Source of the DNA: Eledone cirrhosa
Taxonomy: Eukaryota
Assembly: GCA_964016885.1 (NCBI GenBank)
Contig: OZ024752.1
Location: 14,198,001 to 14,262,000 of the forward strand
Length of the DNA: 64,000 bases
Direction: 5' to 3'
A model generated the notes under the pieces. It was not told the DNA's origin. It saw nothing but the letters and a program-made list of their open reading frames with translations, and did no database searches. This document shows positions 1 through 64,000 of this stretch, in pieces. The number at the start of each line of letters is the position of its first letter. Position 1 is the first letter of the stretch. The position numbers and the translations under genes were made by a program.

Positions 1-186
1 TATGCACGCATCAGTTTAGCGGACGTTTATTACAACGCCGCTTTGTTCGTTTGTTTGTCAACAAACTGACACCCGGTATGCCTGACCGATTTAACTCCCT
101 CAATATGCAAATTAGGCTGCTCAGCCGTTAATTTTCATAAGGAAAGTATATACTTTCGAACGTTCAACTATCTGGCAGATGGGTAA

Positions 187-229
187 ACGGTGCTGATGAT
201 AGCTAACAAGCTTGAAACTAGTACATCCT
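187..229 (+). ncRNA. Minimal type I hammerhead ribozyme motif (family A)
   Basis: cggtg-CTGATGA-tagct aaca agctt-GAAACTAGTA-catcc: core CUGAUGA/GAAA, stem II, palindromic stem III ACTAGT, GUA cleavage triplet. Confidence 0.8.
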
Positions 230-691
230 TCCTGTGTCAGTGTTGAACAAAAAAGTGACGTGGTTGCCTTAACACCGTATGGCATAAATTCAGGCTGTTC
301 AGTTTGTTGACAAACAAACGAACAAAGCAGCGTTGTAATAAACGTGCGCTAAACTGATGCGTGCATATATGTATGTGTACCTGTATGTATGTGTACCTGT
401 ATGTATATATGTATATATATGTATATATATATATATATATGTATGTATATATGTGCATGCTACTGTACGTCTGTATACATATATGTATGTACGTATACAT
501 ACATACTTACATTTAAGTAAGTGCCATACTAAGAGTGAGAAATGAAATTTCGTTTTCATTTTTTTCAACTTATCGTTTTCGGTATGCCTGACCGATTTAA
601 CTCACTCAATATGCAAATTAGGCTGCTCAGCCCTTAATTTTCATAAGGAAAGTATATACTTTCGAACGTTCAACTATCTGGCAGATGGGTA

Positions 692-4406: not shown

Positions 4407-5685
<1,279 letters not shown>

Positions 5686-5690
<5 letters not shown>

Positions 5691-6508
5691 ATGGATTCAC
5701 CGAACATTTATTATAATGCTCGGTGTGTTTGTAAAGAAACATCCCGTATTAAGCCGTAGTGTCTAGTAACCATCGCTGCTCGTTTGTTCAATACTGAGAA
5801 AGGAACGATGTACTAGTTTCAAACTTATTAGCTATCGTCAGCAACGTATACCCTTCTGCCAGATTGTTGAACGTATATAATTACCTTATGCATATTAACG
5901 GCTGAGTAACGCAATTTGCATATCGAGTCGGTTAATCGGCCGAGTGCACCGAAAACGACAAGTAGTATGTATATATACATACTACTGTACGTCTGTATAC
6001 ATATATGTATGTACGTGTACATACTTATATTTAAGTAACAGCCGTACTAAGAGTGGGAAATGAAATCTCGTTTCATTTTTACCGTTTGTCGTTTTCGGTG
6101 CACCCGGCCGATTAACCCACTCGATATGCAAATTGGGCTACTCAGCCGTTAATATGCATAAGGTAAGTATATACGTTCAACAATCTGGCAGAAGGGTATA
6201 CGTTGCTGACGATAGCTAATAAGCTTGAAACGAGTACAGGGTTCCTTTGTCAATGTTGAACAAATGAGCAACGATGGTTGCTAGACACTACGGCTTAATA
6301 CGGGATGTTTCTTTACAAACACACCGAGCATTATAATAAATGTTCGGTGAATCCATACGTACATATATATATGGGTGCATGTATGTATATATATATATAC
6401 ATACTACTGTACGTCTGTATACATATATGTATGTACGTGTACATACTTATATTTACGTAACAGCCGTACTAAGAGTGGGAAATGAAATTTCGTTTCATTT
6501 TTTCCGTT

Positions 6509-17440: not shown

Positions 17441-17445
<5 letters not shown>

Positions 17446-20400
17446 TATGAAGAGAGAAGAAACATTTAGATATAATTAGTAATAAAATGTATCATACCTA
17501 AACTGTTCCTAAATTCCTCGACTACGTAGTTTCGTGGCATAAACAAAAACAATATATCAAAGATATAGAGTCCTTGCGAGGTCTGCCGACTTATCAAGAG
17601 GATACCTCATTTTACTAGTCTCAAGAACGCGTCTACACGACGTGAGAAAGAATCCCAAAAGGCGGAGGGGGAGATAGTCACGCGATATAACGGTCGAGAA
17701 ACAGAGCTAAGCCTCTTATAACCACGAAAAAAATACCACGGAGGCGGAGGGGGTATTCATATCGAGGCCGCAGAAGAGGTAGTGAAGAAGGCGAGAAGTA
17801 TGAGTAATGGAAGCTTTCCAGTTGTCCCCACACTTCAAAGATTGCTCGACCAGAGGGAGTTATTAATACATTTAGAAACACACAGATACATGCGGACACA
17901 CACATATATACATGAATGCATCCGCACCCAACTGTGAGTTAAGGGTGCCAACTTCACCGATGTTGCTCAATGAATGACTGGGACAGACCAATTCAGTTTG
18001 AACCAGACTGAACCAGTATCAGAGTTAAAAATACATTATGAAGAGAGAAGAAACATTTAGATATAATTAGTAATAAAATGTATCATACCTAAACTGTTCC
18101 TAAATTCCTCGACTACGTAGTTTCGTGGCATAAACAAAAACAATATATCAAAGATATAGAGTCCTTGCGAGGTCTGCCGACTTATCAAGAGGATACCTCA
18201 TTTTACTAGTCTCAAGAACGCGTCTACACGACGTGAGAAAGAATCCCAAAAGGCGGAGGGGGAGATAGTCACGCGATATAACGGTCGAGAAACAGAGCTA
18301 AGCCTCTTATAACCACGAAAAAAATACCACGGAGGCGGAGGGGGTATTCATATCGAGGCCGCAGAAGAGGTAGTGAAGAAGGCGAGAAGTATGAGTAATG
18401 GAAGCTTTCCAGTTGTCCCCACACTTCAAAGATTGCTCGACCAGAGGGAGTTATTAATACATTTAGAAACACACAGATACATGCGGACACACACATATAT
18501 ACATGAATGCATCCGCACCCAACTGTGAGTTAAGGGTGCCAACTTCACCGATGTTGCTCAATGAATGACTGGGACAGACCAATTCAGTTTGAACCAGACT
18601 GAACCAGTATCAGAGTTAAAAATACATTATGAAGAGAGAAGAAACATTTAGATATAATTAGTAATAAAATGTATCATACCTAAACTGTTCCTAAATTCCT
18701 CGACTACGTAGTTTCGTGGCATAAACAAAAACAATATATCAAAGATATAGAGTCCTTGCGAGGTCTGCCGACTTATCAAGAGGATACCTCATTTTACTAG
18801 TCTCAAGAACGCGTCTACACGACGTGAGAAAGAATCCCAAAAGGCGGAGGGGGAGATAGTCACGCGATATAACGGTCGAGAAACAGAGCTAAGCCTCTTA
18901 TAACCACGAAAAAAATACCACGGAGGCGGAGGGGGTATTCATATCGAGGCCGCAGAAGAGGTAGTGAAGAAGGCGAGAAGTATGAGTAATGGAAGCTTTC
19001 CAGTTGTCCCCACACTTCAAAGATTGCTCGACCAGAGGGAGTTATTAATACATTTAGAAACACACAGATACATGCGGACACACACATATATACATGAATG
19101 CATCCGCACCCAACTGTGAGTTAAGGGTGCCAACTTCACCGATGTTGCTCAATGAATGACTGGGACAGACCAATTCAGTTTGAACCAGACTGAACCAGTA
19201 TCAGAGTTAAAAATACATTATGAAGAGAGAAGAAACATTTAGATATAATTAGTAATAAAATGTATCATACCTAAACTGTTCCTGGGTGCGGATGCATTCA
19301 TGTATATATGTGTGTGTCCGCATGTATCTGTGTGTTTCTAAATGTATTAATAACTCCCTCTGGTCGAGCAATCTTTGAAGTGTGGGGACAACTGGAAAGC
19401 TTCCATTACTCATACTTCTCGCCTTCTTCACTACCTCTTCTGCGGCCTCGATATGAATACCCCCTCCGCCTCCGTGGTATTTTTTTCGTGGTTATAAGAG
19501 GCTTAGCTCTGTTTCTCGACCGTTATATCGCGTGACTATCTCCCCCTCCGCCTTTTGGGATTCTTTCTCACGTCGTGTAGACGCGTTCTTGAGACTAGTA
19601 AAATGAGGTATCCTCTTGATAAGTCGGCAGACCTCGCAAGGACTCTATATCTTTGATATATTGTTTTTGTTTATGCCACGAAACTACGTAGTCGAGGAAT
19701 TTAGGAACAATTTAGGTATGATACATTTTATTACTAATTATATCTAAATGTTTCTTCTCTCTTCATAATGTATTTTTAACTCTGATACTGGTTCAGTCTG
19801 GTTCAAACTGAATTGGTCTGTCCCAGTCATTCATTGAGCAACATCGGTGAAGTTGGCACCCTTAACTCACAGTTGGGTGCGGATGCATTCATGTATATAT
19901 GTGTGTGTCCGCATGTATCTGTGTGTTTCTAAATGTATTAATAACTCCCTCTGGTCGAGCAATCTTTGAAGTGTGGGGACAACTGGAAAGCTTCCATTAC
20001 TCATACTTCTCGCCTTCTTCACTACCTCTTCTGCGGCCTCGATATGAATACCCCCTCCGCCTCCGTGGTATTTTTTTCGTGGTTATAAGAGGCTTAGCTC
20101 TGTTTCTCGACCGTTATATCGCGTGACTATCTCCCCCTCCGCCTTTTGGGATTCTTTCTCACGTCGTGTAGACGCGTTCTTGAGACTAGTAAAATGAGGT
20201 ATCCTCTTGATAAGTCGGCAGACCTCGCAAGGACTCTATATCTTTGATATATTGTTTTTGTTTATGCCACGAAACTACGTAGTCGAGGAATTTAGGAACA
20301 GTTTAGGTATGATACATTTTATTACTAATTATATCTAAATGTTTCTTCTCTCTTCATAATGTATTTTTAACTCTGATACTGGTTCAGTCTGGTTCAAACT

Positions 20401-20523
20401 GAATTGGTCTGTCCCAGTCATTCATTGAGCAACATCGGTGAAGTTGGCACCCTTAACTCACAGTTGGGTGCGGATGCATTCATGTATATATGTGTGTGTC
20501 CGCATGTATCTGTGTGTTTCTAA

Positions 20524-20528
<5 letters not shown>
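17441..20528. mobile_element. 591-bp tandem array with central inversion; retrozyme-like
   Basis: Unit starts at 17441, 18032, 18623, 19214; orientation flips at about 19283, then about 2.1 inverted units to about 20528. Copies are essentially identical, with one HHR per full unit and TA tracts at both ends. Confidence 0.9.
19611..19698 (+). ncRNA. Type I hammerhead ribozyme, U3-A8 core variant (also 20202-20289 +; 17515-17602, 18106-18193, 18697-18784 -)
   Basis: tcctc-TTGATAA-gtcggca...tgccac-GAAACTACGTAGTC-gagga: stem I tcctc/gagga, stem II gt(c)ggca/tgccac, palindromic stem III ACTACGTAGT, GUC triplet. Confidence 0.8.
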
Positions 20529-20588
<60 letters not shown>

Positions 20589-20607: not shown

Positions 20608-20852
20608 ATAGCTTCTAGAGAACAAGAACTGTTTCATTCGAAAGAAGTCATCAGGAAAGCCTCTGTCATTGTAATACATATAAATGCCACCGTATTACAA
20701 TGACAGTTGTCTTTCCTGATGATTTCTGTCGAATGAAACAGTTATAGACCTGTAGAGGCCATCTCTATATTAAATTTGATGTTTTCCCTCTACTAATGTA
20801 TTGAGTACCTTACTTACTGTGGTTACCCCCGATTGAACTCGGGACTCCCAAG
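20608..20852 (+). mobile_element. Fold-back element with two inverted degenerate HHR cores
   Basis: CTGATGA-tttctgtcgaat-GAAACAGTT at about 20716-20743 (+), mirrored at about 20627-20654 (-); stem I is poorly preserved; tail motif gtattgagtac. Confidence 0.6.
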
Positions 20853-35375: not shown

Positions 35376-36140
35376 ATATACACCAGGTCTCAACACAAAG
35401 GAACCAAACTCCCAACGTCACTGGCTCCGATTCTCCCACTCTCCCCATCTCTCTTATACACCAGCCCTCAACACAAAGGAACCGAACTCCCACTGTCACT
35501 GCCTCCGATTGTCCCACTCTCCCCATCTCTCTTATACACCAGCCCTCAACACAAAGGAACCAAACTCCCACTGCCACTGCCTCGGATTCTCCCACTCTCC
35601 CCGTCTCTCTTATACACCAGGTCTCAACACAAAGGAACCAAACTCCCACTACCACTGCGCCTCTCTCTTCCACTCTCCCCATCTCTCTTATACACCAGGT
35701 CTCAACACAAAGGAACCAATCTCCCACTCCCACTGCGTCTCTCCCTCCCACTCTCCCCATCTCTCTTATACACCAGGTCTCAACACAAAGGAACCAAACT
35801 CCCACTACCACTGCGCCTCTCCCTCCCACTCTCCCCATCTCTCTTATACAACAGGTCTCAACACAAAGGAACAAACTCCCACTACCACTGCGTCTCTCCC
35901 TCCCACTCTCCCCATCTCTCTTATACAACAGGTCTCAACACAAAGGAACCAAACTCCCACTACCACTGCGTCTCTCCCTCCCACTCTCCCCATCTCTTTT
36001 ATACAATATGTCTCAACACAAAGGAACCAAACTCCCACTACCACTGGGTCTCTCCCTCCCACTATCCCCATCTCTCTTATACAACAGGTCTCAACACAAA
36101 GGAACCAATCCCCCACTGTCACTGCCTCCGATTCTCCCTC
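35376..36140. repeat. 78-bp minisatellite, about 10 copies
   Basis: Unit caggtctcaacacaaaggaaccaaactcccac...ctctccccatctctcttataca; 26-aa periodicity in the ORF track. Confidence 0.95.
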
Positions 36141-36279
36141 TCTCTCCGTCTCTCACAATTTTGAGCAAATGGAGGGTCCACTCACTGGCCAGACTGCGGC
36201 CCCGGTGGAGAGGATAGAGAAGATGTTCCCGGGAGACATGCTGGAAGAACCATTCCAACTGATGAGGCTAATGGTGATG

Positions 36280-47489: not shown

Positions 47490-47812
47490 TTAGAAAGTGA
47501 GGCTTTTTACAAATTGAAAAATAACCGGTGTACTACACGAGTGAAAGTATAAAGAAAAAAAGATGAAATCGAAAATGCAACTGGAGTCTTATTTTTAAAA
47601 ATATATGTGTATATTTGGTTCCTTTACAGGTTTCGCAGTTCTTCTGTTGTTCAAAAATAGAGTTGAGGTGGAGGGTCTCTGATTTTTCTCCTATCAGATG
47701 TGACAAAAACCACAGACGGTCCATCTCAACTCAACTTTTTCAAAGCAGAAGAACTGCGAAACCGGTCAAGGAAGCAAATAAATATATACTTTTTTTAAAA
47801 ATAAGACGCCAT
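47490..47812 (-). mobile_element. Family C fold-back element
   Basis: Homologous to 15076-15427; imperfect hairpin with GCGAAACCGGTC-aagg. Confidence 0.75.
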
Positions 47813-47879
47813 ATATACATTAATATATATATATGAATGTATATATTTTTATAAATGTATATATATATATAAATATGAA

Positions 47880-47963
<84 letters not shown>

Positions 47964-48189
47964 TATATATATATATATATATAGATATATATAGATATAT
48001 ATATGAATGTATATATATATATATATGAATGTATATATGAATGTATATATATATATATGAATGTATATATATATATATATTTGTATATATATATATATAT
48101 GAATATATATATTTATATATATATATGAATGTATATATATGAAAGTATATATATATAAATGAATGTATATATATATATATATATGATTG

Positions 48190-48221
<32 letters not shown>

Positions 48222-48237
48222 CATATATACATATGTG

Positions 48238-48289
<52 letters not shown>

Positions 48290-48318
48290 TGTATATATAT
48301 ATATATATATATATATGA

Positions 48319-48364
<46 letters not shown>

Positions 48365-48442
48365 GTATATATATATATATATATATGAATGTATATATAT
48401 ATATATATATGAATGTATATGAATATATATATATATATATGA

Positions 48443-48534
<92 letters not shown>

Positions 48535-48539
<5 letters not shown>

Positions 48540-48888
48540 AAAGTTCTATTTAAAATTGTTGGGATACAACAAGTAAATGTTTTATAACTGATATAAAGCA
48601 CTCGACAAGTTTTTGGAGTAGATATACGATATTAAATAAATGAAAACTATATTTATAAAACCATATTTATTTCATTATACATATTTCAGGGATACCAAAT
48701 TAAAATATGGTATGCCAAAATAATGGTTGCATCTAATAGGGTACGTCAAAATTATTTATAAAACTGTTTATATATTGTATTTTGTCTGATGATGGCATAC
48801 CATATATTAATTTGGTATCCCTGAAATATGTATGATGAAATAAATAAATATGGTTATATAAATATAGTTTCCATTTATTTAATATCGT
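48535..48888. mobile_element. Family E fold-back element with HHR motif (copies at 54987-55336, 55893-56241, 57848-58182)
   Basis: Arms at about 48625-48717 and 48793-48888; tattttgt-CTGATGA-(a/t)ggcatacca...tggtatccct-GAAATATGTAT(A/G)-atgaaata at about 48778-48842. Confidence 0.75.
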
Positions 48889-48982
48889 ATATATATATAT
48901 ATATTTATGTAATATATATATATATATATCTATATGTATATGAATATATATATATATATATATATGAATGTATATATATATA

Positions 48983-49092
<110 letters not shown>

Positions 49093-49530
49093 AGAATGTA
49101 TATATATATATATGAATGTATATATATGTATATATATGAATGTATATATATATATATATGAATGTATATATATATAAATGTATATATATATATATATGAA
49201 TGTATATATATATATATGTATATAAAAATGTATATATATATATATGAATGTATATATATATATATATATATGAATGTATATATATATAAATGTATATATA
49301 TATATATATGAATATGTATATATATATATATGTATATATATATATGAATATATATATATGAATATATATATATATATATAATATATATATATGAATATAT
49401 ATATATATATATATACATATATATTCATATATATATATATATATATATATGTGTATATATATATATGTATATGAATATATATATATATAAATATATATAT
49501 ATATGAATGTATATATATATGGATGTATAT

Positions 49531-52500
49531 ATATTCTATGTCTATATTCACATATATATCGCTATTTCAGAGCATTTATTCCAATTTCTAATTTCTGCCG
49601 GACCGGCAACCGCTCTTTCAAACCAGTTCCTGTACACAGCTAAGTATTCTATAAGTCTCTAGCTGTGTCATTCTCGATAAAAGCACTGGATATGTAGTCC
49701 TGATGATTTCTAACGAGAATGAAACGCGTAGATTACTTCCCTTGCTTTTATCGAGAATCTAATTGTAATACGTGACGTATTCTATTCTATAGCGATTAGG
49801 TCTTCAAAATGTTTATTATAAACATACAGAATATTTTCGAATATTCTATGTCTATATTCACATATATATCGCTATTTCAGAGCATTTATTCCAATTTCTA
49901 ATTTCTGCCGGACCGGCAACCGCTCTTTCAAACCAGTTCCTGTACACAGCTAAGTATTCTATAAGTCTCTAGCTGTGTCATTCTCGATAAAAGCACTGGA
50001 TATGTAGTCCTGATGATTTCTAACGAGAATGAAACGCGTAGATTACTTCCCTTGCTTTTATCGAGAATCTAATTGTAATACGTGACGTATTCTATTCTAT
50101 AGCGATTATGTCTTCAAAATGTTTATTATAAACATACAGAATATTTTCGAATATTCTATGTCTATATTCACATATATATCGCTATTTCAGAGCATTTATT
50201 CCAATTTCTAATTTCTGCCGGACCGGCAACCGCTCTTTCAAACCAGTTCCTGTACACAGCTAAGTATTCTATAAGTCTCTAGCTGTGTCATTCTCGATAA
50301 AAGCACTGGATATGTAGTCCTGATGATTTCTAACGAGAATGAAACGCGTAGATTACTTCCCTTGCTTTTATCGAGAATCTAATTGTAATACGTGACGTAT
50401 TCTATTCTATAGCGATTAGGTCTTCAAAATGTTTATTATAAACATACAGAATATTTTCGAATATTCTATGTCTATATTCACATATATATCGCTATTTCAG
50501 AGCATTTATTCCAATTTCTAATTTCTGCCGGACCGGCAACCGCTCTTTCAAACCAGTTCCTGTACACAGCTAAGTATTCTATAAGTCTCTAGCTGTGTCA
50601 TTCTCGATAAAAGCACTGGATATGTAGTCCTGATGATTTCTAACGAGAATGAAACGCGTAGATTACTTCCCTTGCTTTTATCGAGAATCTAATTGTAATA
50701 CGTGACGTATTCTATTCTATAGCGATTAGGTCTTCAAAATGTTTATTATAAACATACAGAATATTTTCGAATATTCTATGTCTATATTCACATATATATC
50801 GCTATTTCAGAGCATTTATTCCAATTTCTAATTTCTGCCGGACCGGCAACCGCTCTTTCAAACCAGTTCCTGTACACAGCTAAGTATTCTATAAGTCTCT
50901 AGCTGTGTCATTCTCGATAAAAGCACTGGATATGTAGTCCTGATGATTTCTAACGAGAATGAAACGCGTAGATTACTTCCCTTGCTTTTATCGAGAATCT
51001 AATTGTAATACGTGACGTATTCTATTCTATAGCGATTAGGTCTTCAAAATGTTTATTATAAACATACAGAATATTTTCGAATATTCTATGTCTATATTCA
51101 CATATATATCGCTATTTCAGAGCATTTATTCCAATTTCTAATTTCTGCCGGACCGGCAACCGCTCTTTCAAACCAGTTCCTGTACACAGCTAAGTATTCT
51201 ATAAGTCTCTAGCTGTGTCATTCTCGATAAAAGCACTGGATATGTAGTCCTGATGATTTCTAACGAGAATGAAACGCGTAGATTACTTCCCTTGCTTTTA
51301 TCGAGAATCTAATTGTAATACGTGACGTATTCTATTCTATAGCGATTAGGTCTTCAAAATGTTTATTATAAACATACAGAATATTTTCGAATATTCTATG
51401 TCTATATTCACATATATATCGCTATTTCAGAGCATTTATTCCAATTTCTAATTTCTGCCGGACCGGCAACCGCTCTTTCAAACCAGTTCCTGTACACAGC
51501 TAAGTATTCTATAAGTCTCTAGCTGTGTCATTCTCGATAAAAGCACTGGATATGTAGTCCTGATGATTTCTAACGAGAATGAAACGCGTAGATTACTTCC
51601 CTTGCTTTTATCGAGAATCTAATTGTAATACGTGACGTATTCTATTCTATAGCGATTAGGTCTTCAAAATGTTTATTATAAACATACAGAATATTTTCGA
51701 ATATTCTATGTCTATATTCACATATATATCGCTATTTCAGAGCATTTATTCCAATTTCTAATTTCTGCCGGACCGGCAACCGCTCTTTCAAACCAGTTCC
51801 TGTACACAGCTAAGTATTCTATAAGTCTCTAGCTGTGTCATTCTCGATAAAAGCACTGGATATGTAGTCCTGATGATTTCTAACGAGAATGAAACGCGTA
51901 GATTACTTCCCTTGCTTTTATCGAGAATCTAATTGTAATACGTGACGTATTCTATTCTATAGCGATTAGGTCTTCAAAATGTTTATTATAAACATACAGA
52001 ATATTTTCGAATATTCTATGTCTATATTCACATATATATCGCTATTTCAGAGCATTTATTCCAATTTCTAATTTCTGCCGGACCGGCAACCGCTCTTTCA
52101 AACCAGTTCCTGTACACAGCTAAGTATTCTATAAGTCTCTAGCTGTGTCATTCTCGATAAAAGCACTGGATATGTAGTCCTGATGATTTCTAACGAGAAT
52201 GAAACGCGTAGATTACTTCCCTTGCTTTTATCGAGAATCTAATTGTAATACGTGACGTATTCTATTCTATAGCGATTAGGTCTTCAAAATGTTTATTATA
52301 AACATACAGAATATTTTCGAATATTCTATGTCTATATTCACATATATATCGCTATTTCAGAGCATTTATTCCAATTTCTAATTTCTGCCGGACCGGCAAC
52401 CGCTCTTTCAAACCAGTTCCTGTACACAGCTAAGTATTCTATAAGTCTCTAGCTGTGTCATTCTCGATAAAAGCACTGGATATGTAGTCCTGATGATTTC

Positions 52501-54825
52501 TAACGAGAATGAAACGCGTAGATTACTTCCCTTGCTTTTATCGAGAATCTAATTGTAATACGTGACGTATTCTATTCTATAGCGATTAGGTCTTCAAAAT
52601 GTTTATTATAAACATACAGAATATTTTCGAATATTCTATGTCTATATTCACATATATATCGCTATTTCAGAGCATTTATTCCAATTTCTAATTTCTGCCG
52701 GACCGGCAACCGCTCTTTCAAACCAGTTCCTGTACACAGCTAAGTATTCTATAAGTCTCTAGCTGTGTCATTCTCGATAAAAGCACTGGATATGTAGTCC
52801 TGATGATTTCTAACGAGAATGAAACGCGTAGATTACTTCCCTTGCTTTTATCGAGAATCTAATTGTAATACGTGACGTATTCTATTCTATAGCGATTAGG
52901 TCTTCAAAATGTTTATTATAAACATACAGAATATTTTCGAATATTCTATGTCTATATTCACATATATATCGCTATTTCAGAGCATTTATTCCAATTTCTA
53001 ATTTCTGCCGGACCGGCAACCGCTCTTTCAAACCAGTTCCTGTACACAGCTAAGTATTCTATAAGTCTCTAGCTGTGTCATTCTCGATAAAAGCACTGGA
53101 TATGTAGTCCTGATGATTTCTAACGAGAATGAAACGCGTAGATTACTTCCCTTGCTTTTATCGAGAATCTAATTGTAATACGTGACGTATTCTATTCTAT
53201 AGCGATTAGGTCTTCAAAATGTTTATTATAAACATACAGAATATTTTCGAATATTCTATGTCTATATTCACATATATATCGCTATTTCAGAGCATTTATT
53301 CCAATTTCTAATTTCTGCCGGACCGGCAACCGCTCTTTCAAACCAGTTCCTGTACACAGCTAAGTATTCTATAAGTCTCTAGCTGTGTCATTCTCGATAA
53401 AAGCACTGGATATGTAGTCCTGATGATTTCTAACGAGAATGAAACGCGTAGATTACTTCCCTTGCTTTTATCGAGAATCTAATTGTAATACGTGACGTAT
53501 TCTATTCTATAGCGATTAGGTCTTCAAAATGTTTATTATAAACATACAGAATATTTTCGAATATTCTATGTCTATATTCACATATATATCGCTATTTCAG
53601 AGCATTTATTCCAATTTCTAATTTCTGCCGGACCGGCAACCGCTCTTTCAAACCAGTTCCTGTACACAGCTAAGTATTCTATAAGTCTCTAGCTGTGTCA
53701 TTCTCGATAAAAGCACTGGATATGTAGTCCTGATGATTTCTAACGAGAATGAAACGCGTAGATTACTTCCCTTGCTTTTATCGAGAATCTAATTGTAATA
53801 CGTGACGTATTCTATTCTATAGCGATTAGGTCTTCAAAATGTTTATTATAAACATACAGAATATTTTCGAATATTCTATGTCTATATTCACATATATATC
53901 GCTATTTCAGAGCATTTATTCCAATTTCTAATTTCTGCCGGACCGGCAACCGCTCTTTCAAACCAGTTCCTGTACACAGCTAAGTATTCTATAAGTCTCT
54001 AGCTGTGTCATTCTCGATAAAAGCACTGGATATGTAGTCCTGATGATTTCTAACGAGAATGAAACGCGTAGATTACTTCCCTTGCTTTTATCGAGAATCT
54101 AATTGTAATACGTGACGTATTCTATTCTATAGCGATTAGGTCTTCAAAATGTTTATTATAAACATACAGAATATTTTCGAATATTCTATGTCTATATTCA
54201 CATATATATCGCTATTTCAGAGCATTTATTCCAATTTCTAATTTCTGCCGGACCGGCAACCGCTCTTTCAAACCAGTTCCTGTACACAGCTAAGTATTCT
54301 ATAAGTCTCTAGCTGTGTCATTCTCGATAAAAGCACTGGATATGTAGTCCTGATGATTTCTAACGAGAATGAAACGCGTAGATTACTTCCCTTGCTTTTA
54401 TCGAGAATCTAATTGTAATACGTGACGTATTCTATTCTATAGCGATTAGGTCTTCAAAATGTTTATTATAAACATACAGAATATTTTCGAATATTCTATG
54501 TCTATATTCACATATATATCGCTATTTCAGAGCATTTATTCCAATTTCTAATTTCTGCCGGACCGGCAACCGCTCTTTCAAACCAGTTCCTGTACACAGC
54601 TAAGTATTCTATAAGTCTCTAGCTGTGTCATTCTCGATAAAAGCACTGGATATGTAGTCCTGATGATTTCTAACGAGAATGAAACGCGTAGATTACTTCC
54701 CTTGCTTTTATCGAGAATCTAATTGTAATACGTGACGTATTCTATTCTATAGCGATTAGGTCTTCAAAATGTTTATTATAAACATACAGAATATTTTCGA
54801 ATATTCTATGTCTATATTCACATAT
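49531..54825 (+). mobile_element. 310-bp x 17 tandem array, each unit with a type I HHR (non-LTR retrozyme-like)
   Basis: Unit starts at 49531, 49841 ... 54491, plus about 25 bp from 54801. Only one substitution noticed (50109). No ORF; TA-rich microsatellite on both sides. Confidence 0.93.
49670..49758 (+). ncRNA. Type I hammerhead ribozyme with extended stem I (first of 17; repeats every 310 bp)
   Basis: attctcgataaaagca-ctggatat-gtagtc-CTGATGA-tttctaacgagaat-GAAACGCGTA-gattac-ttccct-tgcttttatcgagaat; 16-bp perfect outer helix, palindromic ACGCGT stem III, predicted cleavage after 49730. Confidence 0.92.
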
Positions 54826-54890
54826 CTATATATATATATATGAATATATATATTGATGTAATATATATATATAAATATGAATATATATAT

Positions 54891-54928
<38 letters not shown>

Positions 54929-55630
54929 TTATGTAATATGTATATATATATATATTTATTTAATATATATATGAATATATATATATATGCAAAAGTTCTA
55001 TTTTAAATTGTTGGGATACAACAAGTAAATATCTTATAACTGATATAAAGCACTCGACACGTTTTTGGAGTAGATATACGATATTAAATAAATGGAAACT
55101 ATATTTATAAAACCATATTTATTTCATTATACATATTTTAGGGATACCAAATTAAAATATGGTATGCCAAAATAATGGTTGCATCTAATAGGTTACGTCA
55201 AAATTATTTATGAAACTGTTTATATATTGTATTTTGACTGATGAAGGCATACCATATTTTAATTTGGTATCCCTGAACTATGTATAATGACATAAATATG
55301 GTTTTATAAATATAGTTTCCATTTATTTAATATCGTATATATATATATTTATGTAATATATCTATATATCTATATGTATATGAATATATATATATATATG
55401 AATGTATATATATATATATGAATGTATATATATATATAATTATATATATATATATATGTATATAAGAATGTATATATATATATATGAATGTATATATATG
55501 AATGTATATATATATAAATGTATATATATATATAAATGTATATGTATATATATATGTATATAAGAATGTATATATATATATATATGAATGTATATATAAA
55601 TATAAATGTATATATATATATATATGAATG

Positions 55631-55661
<31 letters not shown>

Positions 55662-55691
55662 ATGAATATATATATATATATATATATATGA

Positions 55692-55730
<39 letters not shown>

Positions 55731-55797
55731 TGTATATATATACATATTTATGTAATATATATATATAAATCCATTTATATATATGAATATATATCTA

Positions 55798-55875
<78 letters not shown>

Positions 55876-56327
55876 TATATATATATATATATATGCAAAA
55901 GATCTAATTAAAATTGTTGGGATACAACAAGTAAATATTTTATAACTGATATAAAGCACTCGACAAGTTTTTGGAGTAGATATACGATATTAAATAAATG
56001 GAAACTATATTTATAAAACCATATTTATTTCATTATACATATTTCAGGGATACCAAATTAAAATATGGTATGCCAAAATATTGGTTGCATCTAATAGAGT
56101 ACGTCAAAATTATTTATAAAACTGTTTATATATTGTATTTTGCTGATGAAGGCATACCATATATTAATTTGGTATCCCTGAAATATGTATAATGAAATAA
56201 ATATGGTTTTATAAATATAGTTTCCATTTATTTAATATCGTATATATATATGTATGCAATATATATATATATCTATATGTATATGAATATATATATATAT
56301 ATATATATGAATGTATATATATATGAA

Positions 56328-56385
<58 letters not shown>

Positions 56386-56522
56386 TGTATATATATGTAT
56401 ATATATGAATGTATATATATATATATATGAATTTATATATATATAAATGTATATATATATATATATGAATGTATATATATATATATGTATATAAGAATGT
56501 ATATATATATATATATATATGA

Positions 56523-56558
<36 letters not shown>

Positions 56559-56565
56559 GAATGTA

Positions 56566-56596
<31 letters not shown>

Positions 56597-56669
56597 GAAT
56601 GTATATATATATAAATGTATATATATATATATATATATGAATATGTATATATATATATGAATATATATA

Positions 56670-56745
<76 letters not shown>

Positions 56746-56805
56746 TATATAGATAGATATATATGAATATATATATATATATTTTTTTTTATATATATAT
56801 ATATA

Positions 56806-56855
<50 letters not shown>

Positions 56856-56947
56856 TATATTTTTATATATATATATATATGTACATATATATATATATAT
56901 ATTCATATATGTATATATATGTGTATATATATATATGTATATCTATA

Positions 56948-57010
<63 letters not shown>

Positions 57011-57528
57011 ATATATATATATGTATATGAATATATATATATATAAATATATATATATATATGAATGTATATATATATGGATGTATATATATATATATAT
57101 ATATGAATGTATATATATATATATATGATTGTATATATATATATATGAATGTATATATATATATATATATGATAGTATATATATATGTATATATATATAC
57201 ATATATATATATGTGTATATATATATACATATATATATATGTATATATGTATATATATACATATATATATATATATGAATGTATATATATATATATATGA
57301 ATGTATATATATATATATATATGAACGTATAAGAATATATATATATATATATGAATGTATATATATATATATATATATATGAATGTATATGAATATATAT
57401 ATATATATATATATGAATGTATATATATATATATATATATATATGAATGTATATGAATATATATATATATGAATGTATATATATATATATATATATGAAT
57501 GTATATGAATATATATATATATATATGA

Positions 57529-57612
<84 letters not shown>

Positions 57613-57724
57613 GAATGTATATATATATATATATTTATGTAATATGTATATATATCTATATATATATGAATATATATTTATGTAATATATATATATATTT
57701 ATGTAATATGTATATATATCTATA

Positions 57725-57783
<59 letters not shown>

Positions 57784-58199
57784 GTAATATATATATATAT
57801 ATATATATATTTATGTAATATATATATGAATATATATATATATATATATGCAAAAGTTCTATTTAAAATTGTTGGGATACAACAAGTAAATATCTTATAA
57901 CTGATATAAAGCACTCGACAAGTTTTTGGAGTAGATATACGATATTAAATAAATGGAAACTATATTTATAAAACCATATTTATTTCATTATACATATTTC
58001 AGGGATACCAAATTAAAATAATGGTTGCATCTAATAGGGTACGTCAAAATTATTTATAAAACTGTTTATATATTGTATTTTGACTGATGAAGGCATACCA
58101 TATATTAATTTGGTATCCCTGAACTATGTATAATAAAATAAATATGGTTTTATAAATATAGTTTCCATGTATTTCATATCGTATATATATATATTTATG

Positions 58200-58285
<86 letters not shown>

Positions 58286-58590
58286 TTGAATATATATATA
58301 TATATATATATGAATGTATATATATATATATGAATGTATATATATATATATATATATATGTATATAAGAATGTATATATATATATATGAATGTATATATA
58401 TATATATATGAATGTATATATATGAATGTATATATATATAAATGTATATATATATATAAATGTATATATATATATGTATATAAGAATGTATATATATATA
58501 TATATATGAATGTATATATAAATATAAATGTATATATATATGAATGTATATATATATATATGGATATAAATATATATATATATATATATG
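54825..58590. repeat. (TA)n/(TGAA-TA) degenerate microsatellite interspersed with family E copies
   Basis: Directly visible. Confidence 0.9.
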
Positions 58591-59151
58591 TAAAGTTATA
58601 ATTAAAATTGTTGGGTTACAACTAGTAAATATTTATAACTGATATAAAAGTACTCGACAAATACTTGGAGTATATTTACAATATTAAATAAATGGAAAAC
58701 TATATTTATAAAACCATATTTATTTCATTATATATATTTCGGGGATATCATATTAACAATATGCTATGCCTTCATCAGACAAAATACAATATAAACAGTT
58801 TTATAGATAAATATATTCGACATACCGTAATAAACATCAACTTCATTTGAAGAGGTTCACTCTAGCAGTGAAAATACAGAGAGAAAGAAAGAGAGAGAGA
58901 AAAGAGGGAAATAAGAAAGAAAGAAAGACAAAACGAAGAAAAGGAAGAAAAAGAAGAAAAAGAAGAAATGCATGGGACAAAATAGAGAGATGGAAAAATA
59001 GATAAAGCGAAGAGCTTCATGTAAAGAGACCGAAAGAGATATATATATATATAGAGAGAGCGAGGAAATAGAGATAGATACATATATAAATATAGATATA
59101 GAAAAATTAGGTAGTGGGAGGTCATTTTGAGTAAGTGTATCAATGATGCAT

Positions 59152-61267: not shown

Positions 61268-63198
61268 TTATTTTCTGTTTAATTTTGGTTGTAATTCTTT
61301 TATGCTTACTGCCTCTGTAATTTGCCTAAACATTGCATCTTTTCTGTGTGTGGATTCTATTTTTATTTCTATGTTCTCTAATCTACCCCTGTGTTCTATC
61401 TTAGCATGTTGGTAGAGCACAGATGATTCTTTATTATCTTGAAGGTCTCGCCAGTGTTCATTTATTCGTTCCCCTATACTACGAGCTGTCTCACCTATGT
61501 ACACTATATTTTTGTTTCTACATTGTCCTTCAGTACATCTTATGCTATACACTACATTTCTAGTTTTACAGTTAATATGGGGGCTTATTTTACAGGTTAT
61601 ACATTTCTTATCTATACATGAGGGTCTTTGGAACGGGTATGTCTTGCTAATAAGTGTTTTTACGGAGGTACCTGGTCTTTCTACTATCTTAATATTGAGT
61701 TTATGTTTATTTAGGGCCCTTCTAAATTTGTAGGCTAGTTCGCCTCTAGGGGTTGTATTGATGAACATTACACTCTGGTATTTATTGCTATCATACCATG
61801 AGTTTATTCTATTGGCCTTGTTCCTAGTTCTTTCTATTCTATTCCAAAATTTGCTCCTATACAAGGGGCAGGTCCCATTTATGTCATTATTTACCATTTT
61901 TTCCCATTTGGTTCTGGCTCCTTTATACACTCCAATTCTATCTCTCTGATTGTAGCCAGAGAACTGCATACGATGGATGAAGTGTTGTATGTGTCTCTCT
62001 AGTTCTTTGGGGTTGCACATGCGGGACACATTTTTCATCACCCGTACCAAATCTGCAATCAGTATGTTGATTTTGGTATGGTCCGAAATGGCCGAGTTTC
62101 GGTGGATCAGATGTTTGGAAGTCATGGGTTTGGCATAATGGGAATGGAGGATTATTTTTGGTTGTTAATGGTATCTAACCAGAGCTCTGTGTCTAGTACA
62201 GGTAATCGATGGTTGGGGTGTCTACTTGGGTAGTCTATAGTAACTCTAATGCTCTGGTGGATGGTGTTTGCTATTTGCTGGATGCTTTCCATTGTGTTTT
62301 TCTCTAGTTCCTGACTGTTCTTTAGTGGGGGTGTCTTAACTACGATGTTTATATCATCTACGTAGCGGGAGTACATTATCAGGGTTAAGCTGTCTTCTAA
62401 TTGTTCTTTAAGTTTTTGTTTAAGTCTACAGTCCCACCATACCATGAATAAGTTAGCTATGTCGCCTGCAATGCTAACACCAATGGCTGCTCCTTCCTCT
62501 TGGGCATATGTTTTACCATTAAATTTGAACATATGTTCCTTAAGGGTTAATTTTATGCTGGCCTCTACCGCATGTGCAATCATTTTCTTCAGTTCATCGT
62601 GGTTTTCGGGTGTCCGTATGGCTCTGGTCCATCCGTTCCATCTATCTGTGTGGGTTTTCTTGGCCATTGAGGTAATGGTATGTGGTCTGCCTCTTGCTGG
62701 TCTTGTAGGGCACAGGTTGCTAAGGTCATAAGTGTCTAGGTAACTATTACTATGGGTAAGCTTAAGTAGAAGTCCCAGCTCACTGGTATCAATCCCACGG
62801 AACTCAACCTTGCTCTCGCTGATCATTTCTACGCATTTCTCCACAGCAAAATCCACGTCAATAGATGGATACAGGGACACAACATCCATACTGCCTATTA
62901 TGCAGTTTGTTAGGTCCCCAGATCGGTTACCCGCGCCGATTCTGCTGAGGAGCTCCTCCGTGCTGTCACATACGTCTGGGGACATCTCAATAATGGGGCG
63001 TATGATCAGGGAGAGGAAGTAGGACAGTCTGTAGTTACTAGCAATGTTAGCCCCACAGACTGGCCGTGTTGGTGGTCCCGCGACAGGGTCCCAGCCCGTT
63101 TTATGGTCTTTTCGAAGCCCATACAACGCCGGCACGTCATTGTTCCAGGCCTGTAAGTTGTTGGCAGTCCTTTTGTTGGGCTGCATTATGTTCGTCCA
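61268..63198 (-). pseudogene. PLE reverse transcriptase plus GIY-YIG endonuclease (one frameshift near 62155, 5'-truncated)
   Basis: LYGLRKDHK, PTRPV, SMDVVSLYPSI, QEEGAAIG, RYVDD, LPVLD, HYAKP; Cys linker C-x4-C-x2-C-x6-C; NVVYSIRC..YIGETARS..ER..EH. Confidence 0.93.
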
Positions 63199-63349
63199 TA
63201 TATATATCTGGTTGTGGAACCAACCAACCAACCAGAAATTTATAGGTTTGGAGATTTGTAAATTTATAAATTTATAAATATATAATAAATTGAAGTGAAA
63301 GCAAATGGTGCGTGTGTTTCTTATTGGCAACATGACCCTCCCAAAGTAT

Positions 63350-64000
<651 letters not shown>

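What the first reader, a model, noticed from the sequence alone, without database searches (positions are those of the whole stretch)
49531..54825. 17 x 310-bp satellite is a hammerhead-ribozyme array: candidate cephalopod retrozyme/circular RNA
Seen: every unit contains a complete type I HHR (CUGAUGA / GAAAC-GC-GUA; stem I gtagtc/gattac extended by a perfect 16-bp helix) plus further hairpins (acacagcta/tagctgtgt, tgccgg-a-ccggca). Units are almost identical, non-coding and inserted in a TA-rich microsatellite. Known: metazoan non-LTR retrozymes are tandem repeats of a few hundred nt with type I HHRs; they are processed to monomeric linear and circular RNAs and are thought to be copied by PLE RTs. 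Minimal HHRs with a palindromic stem III cleave as dimers. Inference: this array is a recent rolling-circle reverse-transcription product of a 310-nt circRNA, and a + strand transcript would be cut into 310-nt monomers after 49730+310n. I am not aware of this family being described but cannot search.
Basis: partly seen in the sequence, partly recalled or inferred. Interest (0 to 1): 0.92.

Follow-up and report, generated by a model that had tools for sequence, protein, structure and literature searches.

The report
Penelope-copied hammerhead RNA repeat array
This is one young copy of a 310-base non-coding repeat with a predicted self-cutting RNA motif, found at over a thousand places in this animal genome; the ends of its copies suggest that a Penelope-type jumping-gene enzyme wrote them into DNA, likely by copying round and round a small RNA circle.

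Summary
Confirmed: 17.1 units of 310 nt (49531-54825), one mismatch in 5.3 kb, each with a type I hammerhead motif whose stems and C3-G8/U3-A8 pair covary across older subfamilies. It is a metazoan non-LTR retrozyme: 11,674 exact ribozyme copies and over 1,100 insertions in this genome. Family-wide, insertions sit in (TA)n as two back-to-back concatemer arms. One arm ends 139 nt and the other about 165 nt after the ribozyme site (55 of 55 pairs), never at the site itself. This is the Penelope-like (PLE) 'inverted + tail' footprint of two internal reverse-transcription starts. This locus is the minority one-armed (139) form and is unusually long. Arms share array-wide variants (151 shared, one doubtful exception) and cross the cut site without scars, which favours one circular monomer as template; a linear multimer is not excluded. 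Cleavage, expression, circle and partner PLE are untested. No RNA run was listed, and no homologous PLE terminus was found in 33 PLE loci. The scan had already reported this family and layout at other loci of this genome.

The parts
49531..54825 (+). Single-armed retrozyme concatemer, 17.1 units of 310 nt, from phase 111 to phase 135-139 (phase 1 = first base after the predicted cut); no inverted second arm
49694..49736 (+). First of 17 type I hammerhead motifs (repeats every 310 nt); predicted cut after 49730+310n
   Evidence: covariation across 17 related units
49724..49729 (+). Palindromic stem III ACGCGT; predicted to pair between two ribozymes (double hammerhead)
   Evidence: sequence; 6-bp duplex -7.5 kcal/mol, but not populated in the ViennaRNA ensemble of a dimer
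49670..49758 (+). Perfect 16-bp helix (49670-49685 with 49743-49758) enclosing the ribozyme; covaries in older subfamilies
49731..50040 (+). First complete predicted monomer (cut to cut); 16 such monomers in the array
49860..49895 (+). The two family-wide end points: phase 130-139 (AT tract, 49860-49869) and phase 165 (49895), with the 26-nt tail between them. Inferred reverse-transcription start sites. Overlaps the 17-mer conserved in old subfamilies (49868-49884)
54816..54835 (+). 3' junction of the array with (TA)n, of the 139 type
49520..49540 (+). 5' junction at phase 111, ATAT microhomology with the host TA tract
47811..58770 (.). Host tandem repeat (about 0.9-1.2 kb units separated by TA tracts); the array lies in one TA tract
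61271..63396 (-). 5'-truncated, interrupted PLE (RT + GIY-YIG, Neptune-type zinc finger) with inverted terminus and TA flanks. Member of a young family with long open frames elsewhere; candidate helper, not shown to be the partner

Best explanation
The array is one very young insertion of a non-coding hammerhead retrozyme family whose copies end at two fixed internal sites and sit in (TA)n; it was most likely written into DNA by a Penelope-like element (PLE) reverse transcriptase, probably running many times round a 310-nt RNA circle. Steps: (1) inferred: an array is transcribed as a multimer; (2) predicted: neighbouring ribozymes pair through the ACGCGU palindrome and cut after GUA, giving 310-nt monomers, and a lone monomer would cut poorly; (3) inferred from other retrozymes: a host ligase closes the monomer; (4) inferred from the footprint: a PLE protein, probably a dimer, cuts both strands of a (TA)n tract and primes cDNA from each 3' end at phases 139 and about 165 of the RNA; (5) inferred: each RT passes the ligation site repeatedly and gives a concatemer arm; (6) the inner ends show short overlaps and were probably joined by microhomology, giving back-to-back arms. 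Here only the 139-primed arm is present; its inner end meets the TA tract at an ATAT overlap.
For: Ribozyme: 11 of 14 named pairs have double changes across 17 units; C3-G8/U3-A8 is 8:9 with none broken; 0 of 500 shuffles reach the score (related sequences can beat shuffles, and the slid controls are far lower). Spread: 11,674 exact 35-nt ribozyme cores and 24,495 copies of a 17-mer including old subfamilies; reversed controls 0. Ends: 1,102 phase-165/(TA)n junctions, 965 phase-139 junctions, 0 junctions of the cut site with 8 A/T bases. Of the first 100 of each end type on contig C1, 55 form tail-out pairs, all with one 139 and one 165 end; none is 139/139 or 165/165; median span 2.4 kb. This matches the PLE 'inverted copy + tail' layout (Craig et al., passages) and the in vitro result that a PLE protein cuts and extends both strands and starts at two internal sites that define the tail (PMC11167929). 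Template: in 81 two-armed arrays, 151 variants are fixed in both arms and 1 doubtful one in one arm only. Variation within arrays is about 0.1% per base; arrays differ by about 4 fixed changes. 13 of 49 arrays carry a private array-wide haplotype, close to the 20-28% expected if each is founded by one random unit. 87 single-unit changes in zones covered by both arms are not mirrored, against 1 mirrored. 444 crossings of the cut site show no unit-specific indel, and 2 of 98 inner ends lie within 5 nt of it against 3.2 expected. Young PLEs with long open frames and the same layout exist.
Against: No direct evidence of cleavage, RNA or circle. In the PLE studied in vitro, ribozyme cleavage was not needed and unprocessed RNA was the main substrate (PMC11167929). 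In Xenopus, 8 of 9 retrozyme dimers did not cut in vitro (preprint). ViennaRNA does not populate stem II or the inter-unit stem III. Two haplotypes make up 28 of 49 arrays, so a few homogeneous master arrays could supply linear templates. One variant is mirrored in both arms at a 26-nt offset in L170, as a linear template predicts. L124 is a mosaic (9 of 13 units), so two templates or gene conversion can contribute. Long arms show duplicated blocks (C3, L112b, L164, C1:125), so local expansion occurs, and this array is longer than 97 of 98 sampled arms. No PLE terminus homologous to the unit in 33 PLE loci. The 26-nt tail is shorter than the 30-40 nt in the literature and the 60 nt of the neighbouring PLE. 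This locus itself lacks the second arm.
Confidence: 0.65

Rival explanations
1. Same PLE machinery and start sites, but the template is an uncut linear multimer transcript from a few homogeneous master arrays. Circles or monomers play only an occasional part.
For: PLE protein in vitro prefers unprocessed RNA and needs no ribozyme cut (PMC11167929). 28 of 49 arrays share two haplotypes. One mirrored variant in L170. The ribozyme is weak in folding models. A linear template also gives scar-free crossings and shared variants.
Against: Linear copying cannot turn a one-unit change into an array-wide one, yet 13 of 49 arrays have private array-wide haplotypes. 87 of 88 informative single-unit changes are not mirrored (some singletons may be assembly errors). 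The ribozyme is conserved by covariation over about 30% divergence.
Confidence: 0.22
2. A PLE inserted a short (1-2 unit) copy, and the array then grew in place by unequal exchange or slippage, as an ordinary satellite does (the route discussed in the 2026 preprint).
For: Duplicated variant blocks in the longest arms (C3, L112b, L164, C1:125). This array is in the top 1-2% of arm lengths and has too few variants to exclude expansion. Preprint discussion.
Against: 44 of 49 paired insertions already have both arms longer than one unit, and 31 of 49 longer than two, at about 0.1% divergence. Single-unit changes (212) far outnumber shared ones (22 rows, several of them alignment artefacts), as expected for units born together.
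Confidence: 0.08
3. The array, or its copy number, is an assembly artefact.
For: Near-perfect identity; no long reads were examined; the public contigs collapse the repeat.
Against: 88 arrays have unique flanks, locus-specific haplotypes and stereotyped ends. Six public runs of four studies hold 90-100% of the sampled words.
Confidence: 0.03
4. The unit is a viroid-like circle that replicates RNA-to-RNA and is only secondarily captured in DNA.
For: Size and strong folding.
Against: No minus-strand hammerhead in the array. The old subfamilies in the genome carry the same ends. Divergence between arrays is low and fits DNA-level mutation rates.
Confidence: 0.02

Closest known systems
Metazoan non-LTR retrozymes (Cervera and de la Pena 2020, PMC7229834: passages and Discussion read, supplements not seen; Li, Clavereau and Pollet 2026, 10.64898/2026.07.22.740005: parts 1-3 of 5 read, supplements not seen)
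   Same: Tandem non-coding units of about 300 nt, GC under 45%, one type I hammerhead per unit, thousands of copies, PLEs in the same genome. The stem III of one pair plus a palindromic tetraloop is like axolotl HHR_Amex1, and the U-U at the base of stem II is like HHR_Amex2.
   Different: In what I read, those papers propose PLE copying of a circle but describe no fixed ends, tail, inverted arms or (TA)n target. The 2026 preprint argues from terminal-repeat homology and also considers local amplification. Here no homologous PLE terminus was found, and no RNA data exist.
Insertions of endonuclease-bearing Penelope-like elements (Craig et al. 2021, 10.1101/2021.04.23.441226: passages read; Frangieh et al. 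2024, PMC11167929: parts 1-2 of 4 read)
   Same: Inverted 5'-truncated copy, a tail on one end, AT-rich or (TA)n target, two internal start sites, both strands extended, a hammerhead upstream of the ends.
   Different: No protein; arms are long concatemers of one 310-nt unit; tail is 26 nt rather than 30-40. In the anole element the ribozyme was dispensable in vitro.
Non-autonomous Chlamys elements such as MRC1 (Craig et al. 2021, passage)
   Same: [quoted passage not shown]
   Different: That clade lacks hammerheads, and its passengers resemble their helpers at the 3' end; no such helper was found here.

Membership tests
Metazoan non-LTR retrozyme | Type I hammerhead motif in every tandem unit | tested here: met
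   17 of 17 units; covariation. Rfam models do not reach threshold.
Metazoan non-LTR retrozyme | Unit about 170-400 nt, GC under 45%, non-coding | tested here: met
   310 nt, 34.5% GC, longest ATG ORF 30 aa
Metazoan non-LTR retrozyme | Dispersed tandem arrays at many loci | tested here: met
Metazoan non-LTR retrozyme | No LTR, primer-binding site or polypurine tract | tested here: inconclusive
   Arrays end directly in (TA)n with no terminal repeat; no search against tRNA 3' ends was run
Metazoan non-LTR retrozyme | Self-cleavage as monomer or dimer | not testable with these tools
   Predicted only; stem II weak in ViennaRNA
Metazoan non-LTR retrozyme | Expressed as linear and circular monomer RNA | not testable with these tools
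   No RNA data were available (see Tried and rejected)
Metazoan non-LTR retrozyme | Autonomous PLEs in the same genome | tested here: met
   132 of 132 scored matches at 96-100% identity, several in open frames of 1,226-1,240 codons; further PLE families
EN+ Penelope-like element insertion signature | Inverted 5'-truncated arm | tested here: met
   Family-wide: 55 of 55 pairs, plus 14 of 19 resolved 'unpaired' ends. Absent at this locus.
EN+ Penelope-like element insertion signature | Tail extension on one end (30-40 nt in the literature) | tested here: met
   Fixed tail present, but 26 nt (26-31 with the 165-170 variants)
EN+ Penelope-like element insertion signature | AT-rich or (TA)n target | tested here: met
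Autonomous EN+ PLE | Encodes RT and GIY-YIG endonuclease | tested here: not met
   No ORF in the unit; it is a passenger, not a PLE
pLTR-derived non-autonomous PLE | Homology to the terminal repeat of a helper PLE | tested here: inconclusive
   No homologous terminus in 25 loci or 33 loci. The strong hits there were separate retrozyme insertions beside the PLE. Only 30 of 150 scored (10,597 candidate) GIY-YIG sites were examined.

The most novel reading that the evidence does not exclude
Rolling-circle target-primed reverse transcription in an animal: one PLE dimer grips one 310-nt RNA circle, primes both ends of a double-strand break at two sites 26 nt apart, and both RTs circle the same template. 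The dimer-only hammerhead acts as a switch that cuts multimers but spares the circle. The long single arm here would be one RT completing 17 laps.
Probability: 0.45. Interest if true: 0.82.

Novelty: new member of a known kind. Interest (0 to 1): 0.63.

Why it matters
How animal retrozymes get back into DNA has been proposed (a PLE RT copying a circle) but, in the papers read here, not shown; the 2026 preprint still lists the mechanism as open. This family gives the target (TA)n, the two start sites to the base, the expected product (back-to-back concatemers), over a thousand young insertions, and young PLEs with long open frames in the same genome. One in vitro assay with circular versus linear RNA could settle it. 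If the circle model holds, PLE RTs are strand-displacing, multi-lap enzymes, and a class of satellite DNA is born full-length by retrotransposition.

Tried and rejected
Rfam: nothing at gathering score, only a weak HH9 match. Expression: no RNA holder listed. Two runs of unrecorded kind give one clean 340-nt contig (310 + overlap), which a tandem repeat or a circle would both give; whether those runs are RNA stays open. A G>T at phase 69 recurring in single units looked like a process scar but is ascertainment: the query carried it, and it appears in none of the 8 position-picked arrays. Avoidance of the ribozyme core by array-wide variants: 0 of 19, too few to count. One-armed copies favouring the 139 end: 4 of 10 versus 1 of 9, p 0.30. 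Partner PLE: none found; a loose likeness between the end sequences of the unit and of some PLE families was seen by eye only and is not used. Literature: searches listed no paper on this family or on two-armed retrozyme arrays; most subscription papers, Repbase and Dfam are not covered, and supplements of the cited papers were not seen. A sequence look-up of earlier notes returned nothing, although the place look-up did.
Full report
Observation. The repeat is as described: 49531-54825, 17 units of 310 nt plus 25 nt, with one internal mismatch. Every unit holds stem I GTAGTC/GATTAC, CTGATGA, a 4-bp stem II with a U-U at its base, GAAAC-GC-GTA, and a predicted cut after 49730+310n. I number positions as phases from the cut (phase 1 = 49731). 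The array starts at phase 111 and ends at phase 135-139, both in TA tracts of a larger host repeat. It is non-coding and 34.5% GC. Rfam does not recognise the motif at threshold.

Is the ribozyme real? In 17 units of 68-100% identity, chosen from 33 non-redundant hits as the longer and more diverse ones, 11 of the 14 pairs I named change on both sides. The core pair is C-G in 8 units and U-A in 9, with none broken, and the two stem III pairs never vary. The long helix below stem I and two hairpins upstream of the ends also covary. This indicates selection on an RNA structure, not activity. In the young subfamily, stem III is the palindrome ACGCGU with a 2-nt loop. That is the form described for axolotl HHR_Amex1, which cuts weakly alone and well as a dimer (PMC7229834, passages). 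ViennaRNA forms stem I firmly but not stem II or the inter-unit stem, so activity remains a prediction.

The family. The window lies in a 3.0-Gb genome. An exact 35-nt ribozyme pattern occurs 11,674 times, and a 17-mer shared with older subfamilies 24,495 times. Most young insertions examined consist of a minus-strand concatemer followed by a plus-strand one, each ending in (TA)n. Exact junction counts are 1,102 for phase 165, 965 for phase 139 and 0 for the cut site. Among the first 100 ends of each type on contig C1, 55 pair tail-out within 20 kb, and every pair is one 139 plus one 165. Of 10 unpaired 139 ends, 6 had a second arm ending at 165-170 (one only 9 nt long) and 4 were one-armed. 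Of 10 unpaired 165 ends, 8 had a second arm, 1 was one-armed and 1 ran into a gap. The window array is thus the minority one-armed 139 form. It has the commonest haplotype (17 of 49 arrays) and is longer than 97 of 98 sampled arms.

What the ends mean. PLE insertions are described with an inverted 5'-truncated copy, a 30-40 nt tail on one end and a microsatellite bias (Craig et al., passages). A purified PLE protein cuts and extends both strands of AT-rich DNA, starts at two internal RNA sites that bound the tail, and is modelled as a dimer (PMC11167929). Two cDNAs primed from the two sides of a break give the orientation seen here. The inner junctions of 48 simple arrays overlap by a median of 2 nt (38 of 48 by at least 1), and inner ends are enriched in the AT-rich hairpin at phases 63-93 (23 of 98). 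A PLE with the same layout lies at 61271-63396. Its family is young, with long open frames and a 60-nt tail. No PLE terminus homologous to the unit was found, so the helper is unidentified.

Circle or linear multimer? I analysed 88 arrays: 39 (26 picked by position, 13 by similarity) and 49 (paired ends on C1 beyond 21 Mb, less one already used). In 81 two-armed arrays, 151 variants are fixed in both arms and one doubtful AT-tract insertion is confined to one. Private array-wide haplotypes occur in 13 of 49 arrays, which needs a one-unit bottleneck followed by re-multimerisation; the share matches founding by one random existing unit (20-28%, rough because some singletons may be assembly errors). 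Single-unit changes in zones copied by both arms are unmirrored in 87 cases and mirrored in 1. The cut site is crossed 444 times without unit-specific indels, and inner ends do not pile up there, which argues against jumping between, or running off, cut linear monomers. Against the circle: two haplotypes account for 28 of 49 arrays, L170 has the mirrored change, L124 is a mosaic, the longest arms contain duplicated blocks, the anole PLE used uncut RNA in vitro, and 8 of 9 Xenopus dimers did not cut. I put the circle at about 0.65, the linear multimer at 0.22 and local expansion at 0.08; PLE-type mobilisation as such at about 0.9.

Comparison with what is known. All testable features of metazoan non-LTR retrozymes are met; cleavage and circular RNA could not be tested. 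PMC7229834 proposes target-primed copying of the circle into tandem cDNA by PLEs (Discussion), and the 2026 preprint links retrozymes to PLE termini while leaving the mechanism open. Neither, in the parts read, describes fixed ends or two-armed arrays, and six searches listed no paper on this family; supplements were not seen. I stated my reading before consulting earlier scan notes. They report the same 310-nt family and layout at other loci of this genome, which is not independent support.

Verdict. Real, a new member of a known kind, valuable because it turns a proposed mechanism into a precise assay. Interest 0.63.

Noticed in passing
window 17443-20529: A second young two-armed family between TA tracts: 591-nt unit, hammerhead with a U3-A8 core, a long insert in stem II and a palindromic stem III, predicted cut after 19693, ends at phases about 78 and 243 (tail about 165 nt); arms nearly identical.
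   Followed up: partly
window 74-303, 580-809, 5542-5939 (-), 6108-6503; also L022: A third hammerhead repeat family (period about 500-540 nt) with palindromic stem III ACTAGT.
   Followed up: no
window 20634-20740: Two back-to-back hammerhead stubs on opposite strands next to a TA tract.
   Followed up: no
window 47811-58770: The host tandem repeat contains a fold-back of about 300 nt between TA tracts, with a degenerate CTGATGA...GAAA stretch; possibly an old PLE-type passenger amplified in place. Another 310-nt array (L027) is followed by the same host sequence.
   Followed up: no
window 61271-63396 (-); L128, L129: Very abundant young PLE family (38,915 candidates at first look) with a Neptune-type zinc finger, open frames of 1,226-1,240 codons, and a 60-nt tail that overlaps the start of the reading frame.
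   Followed up: partly
L124:376-4394: Mosaic array: phase 276 is A in the four outer units of the 165 arm and G in its inner two and in all seven units of the 139 arm; a template switch or gene conversion.
   Followed up: partly
L090, L161, L174, L175, L180: Array-wide 1-nt insertions 2-4 nt after the predicted cut site, in stem I; possibly ligation-related.
   Followed up: no
L031-L032, L033, L090: Inner junctions with short back-and-forth repeats of 30-130 nt, as if the two cDNA ends annealed and slipped several times.
   Followed up: no
window 35377-36154: Unrelated 78-bp tandem repeat of 10 copies with a 311-bp higher-order period.
   Followed up: no
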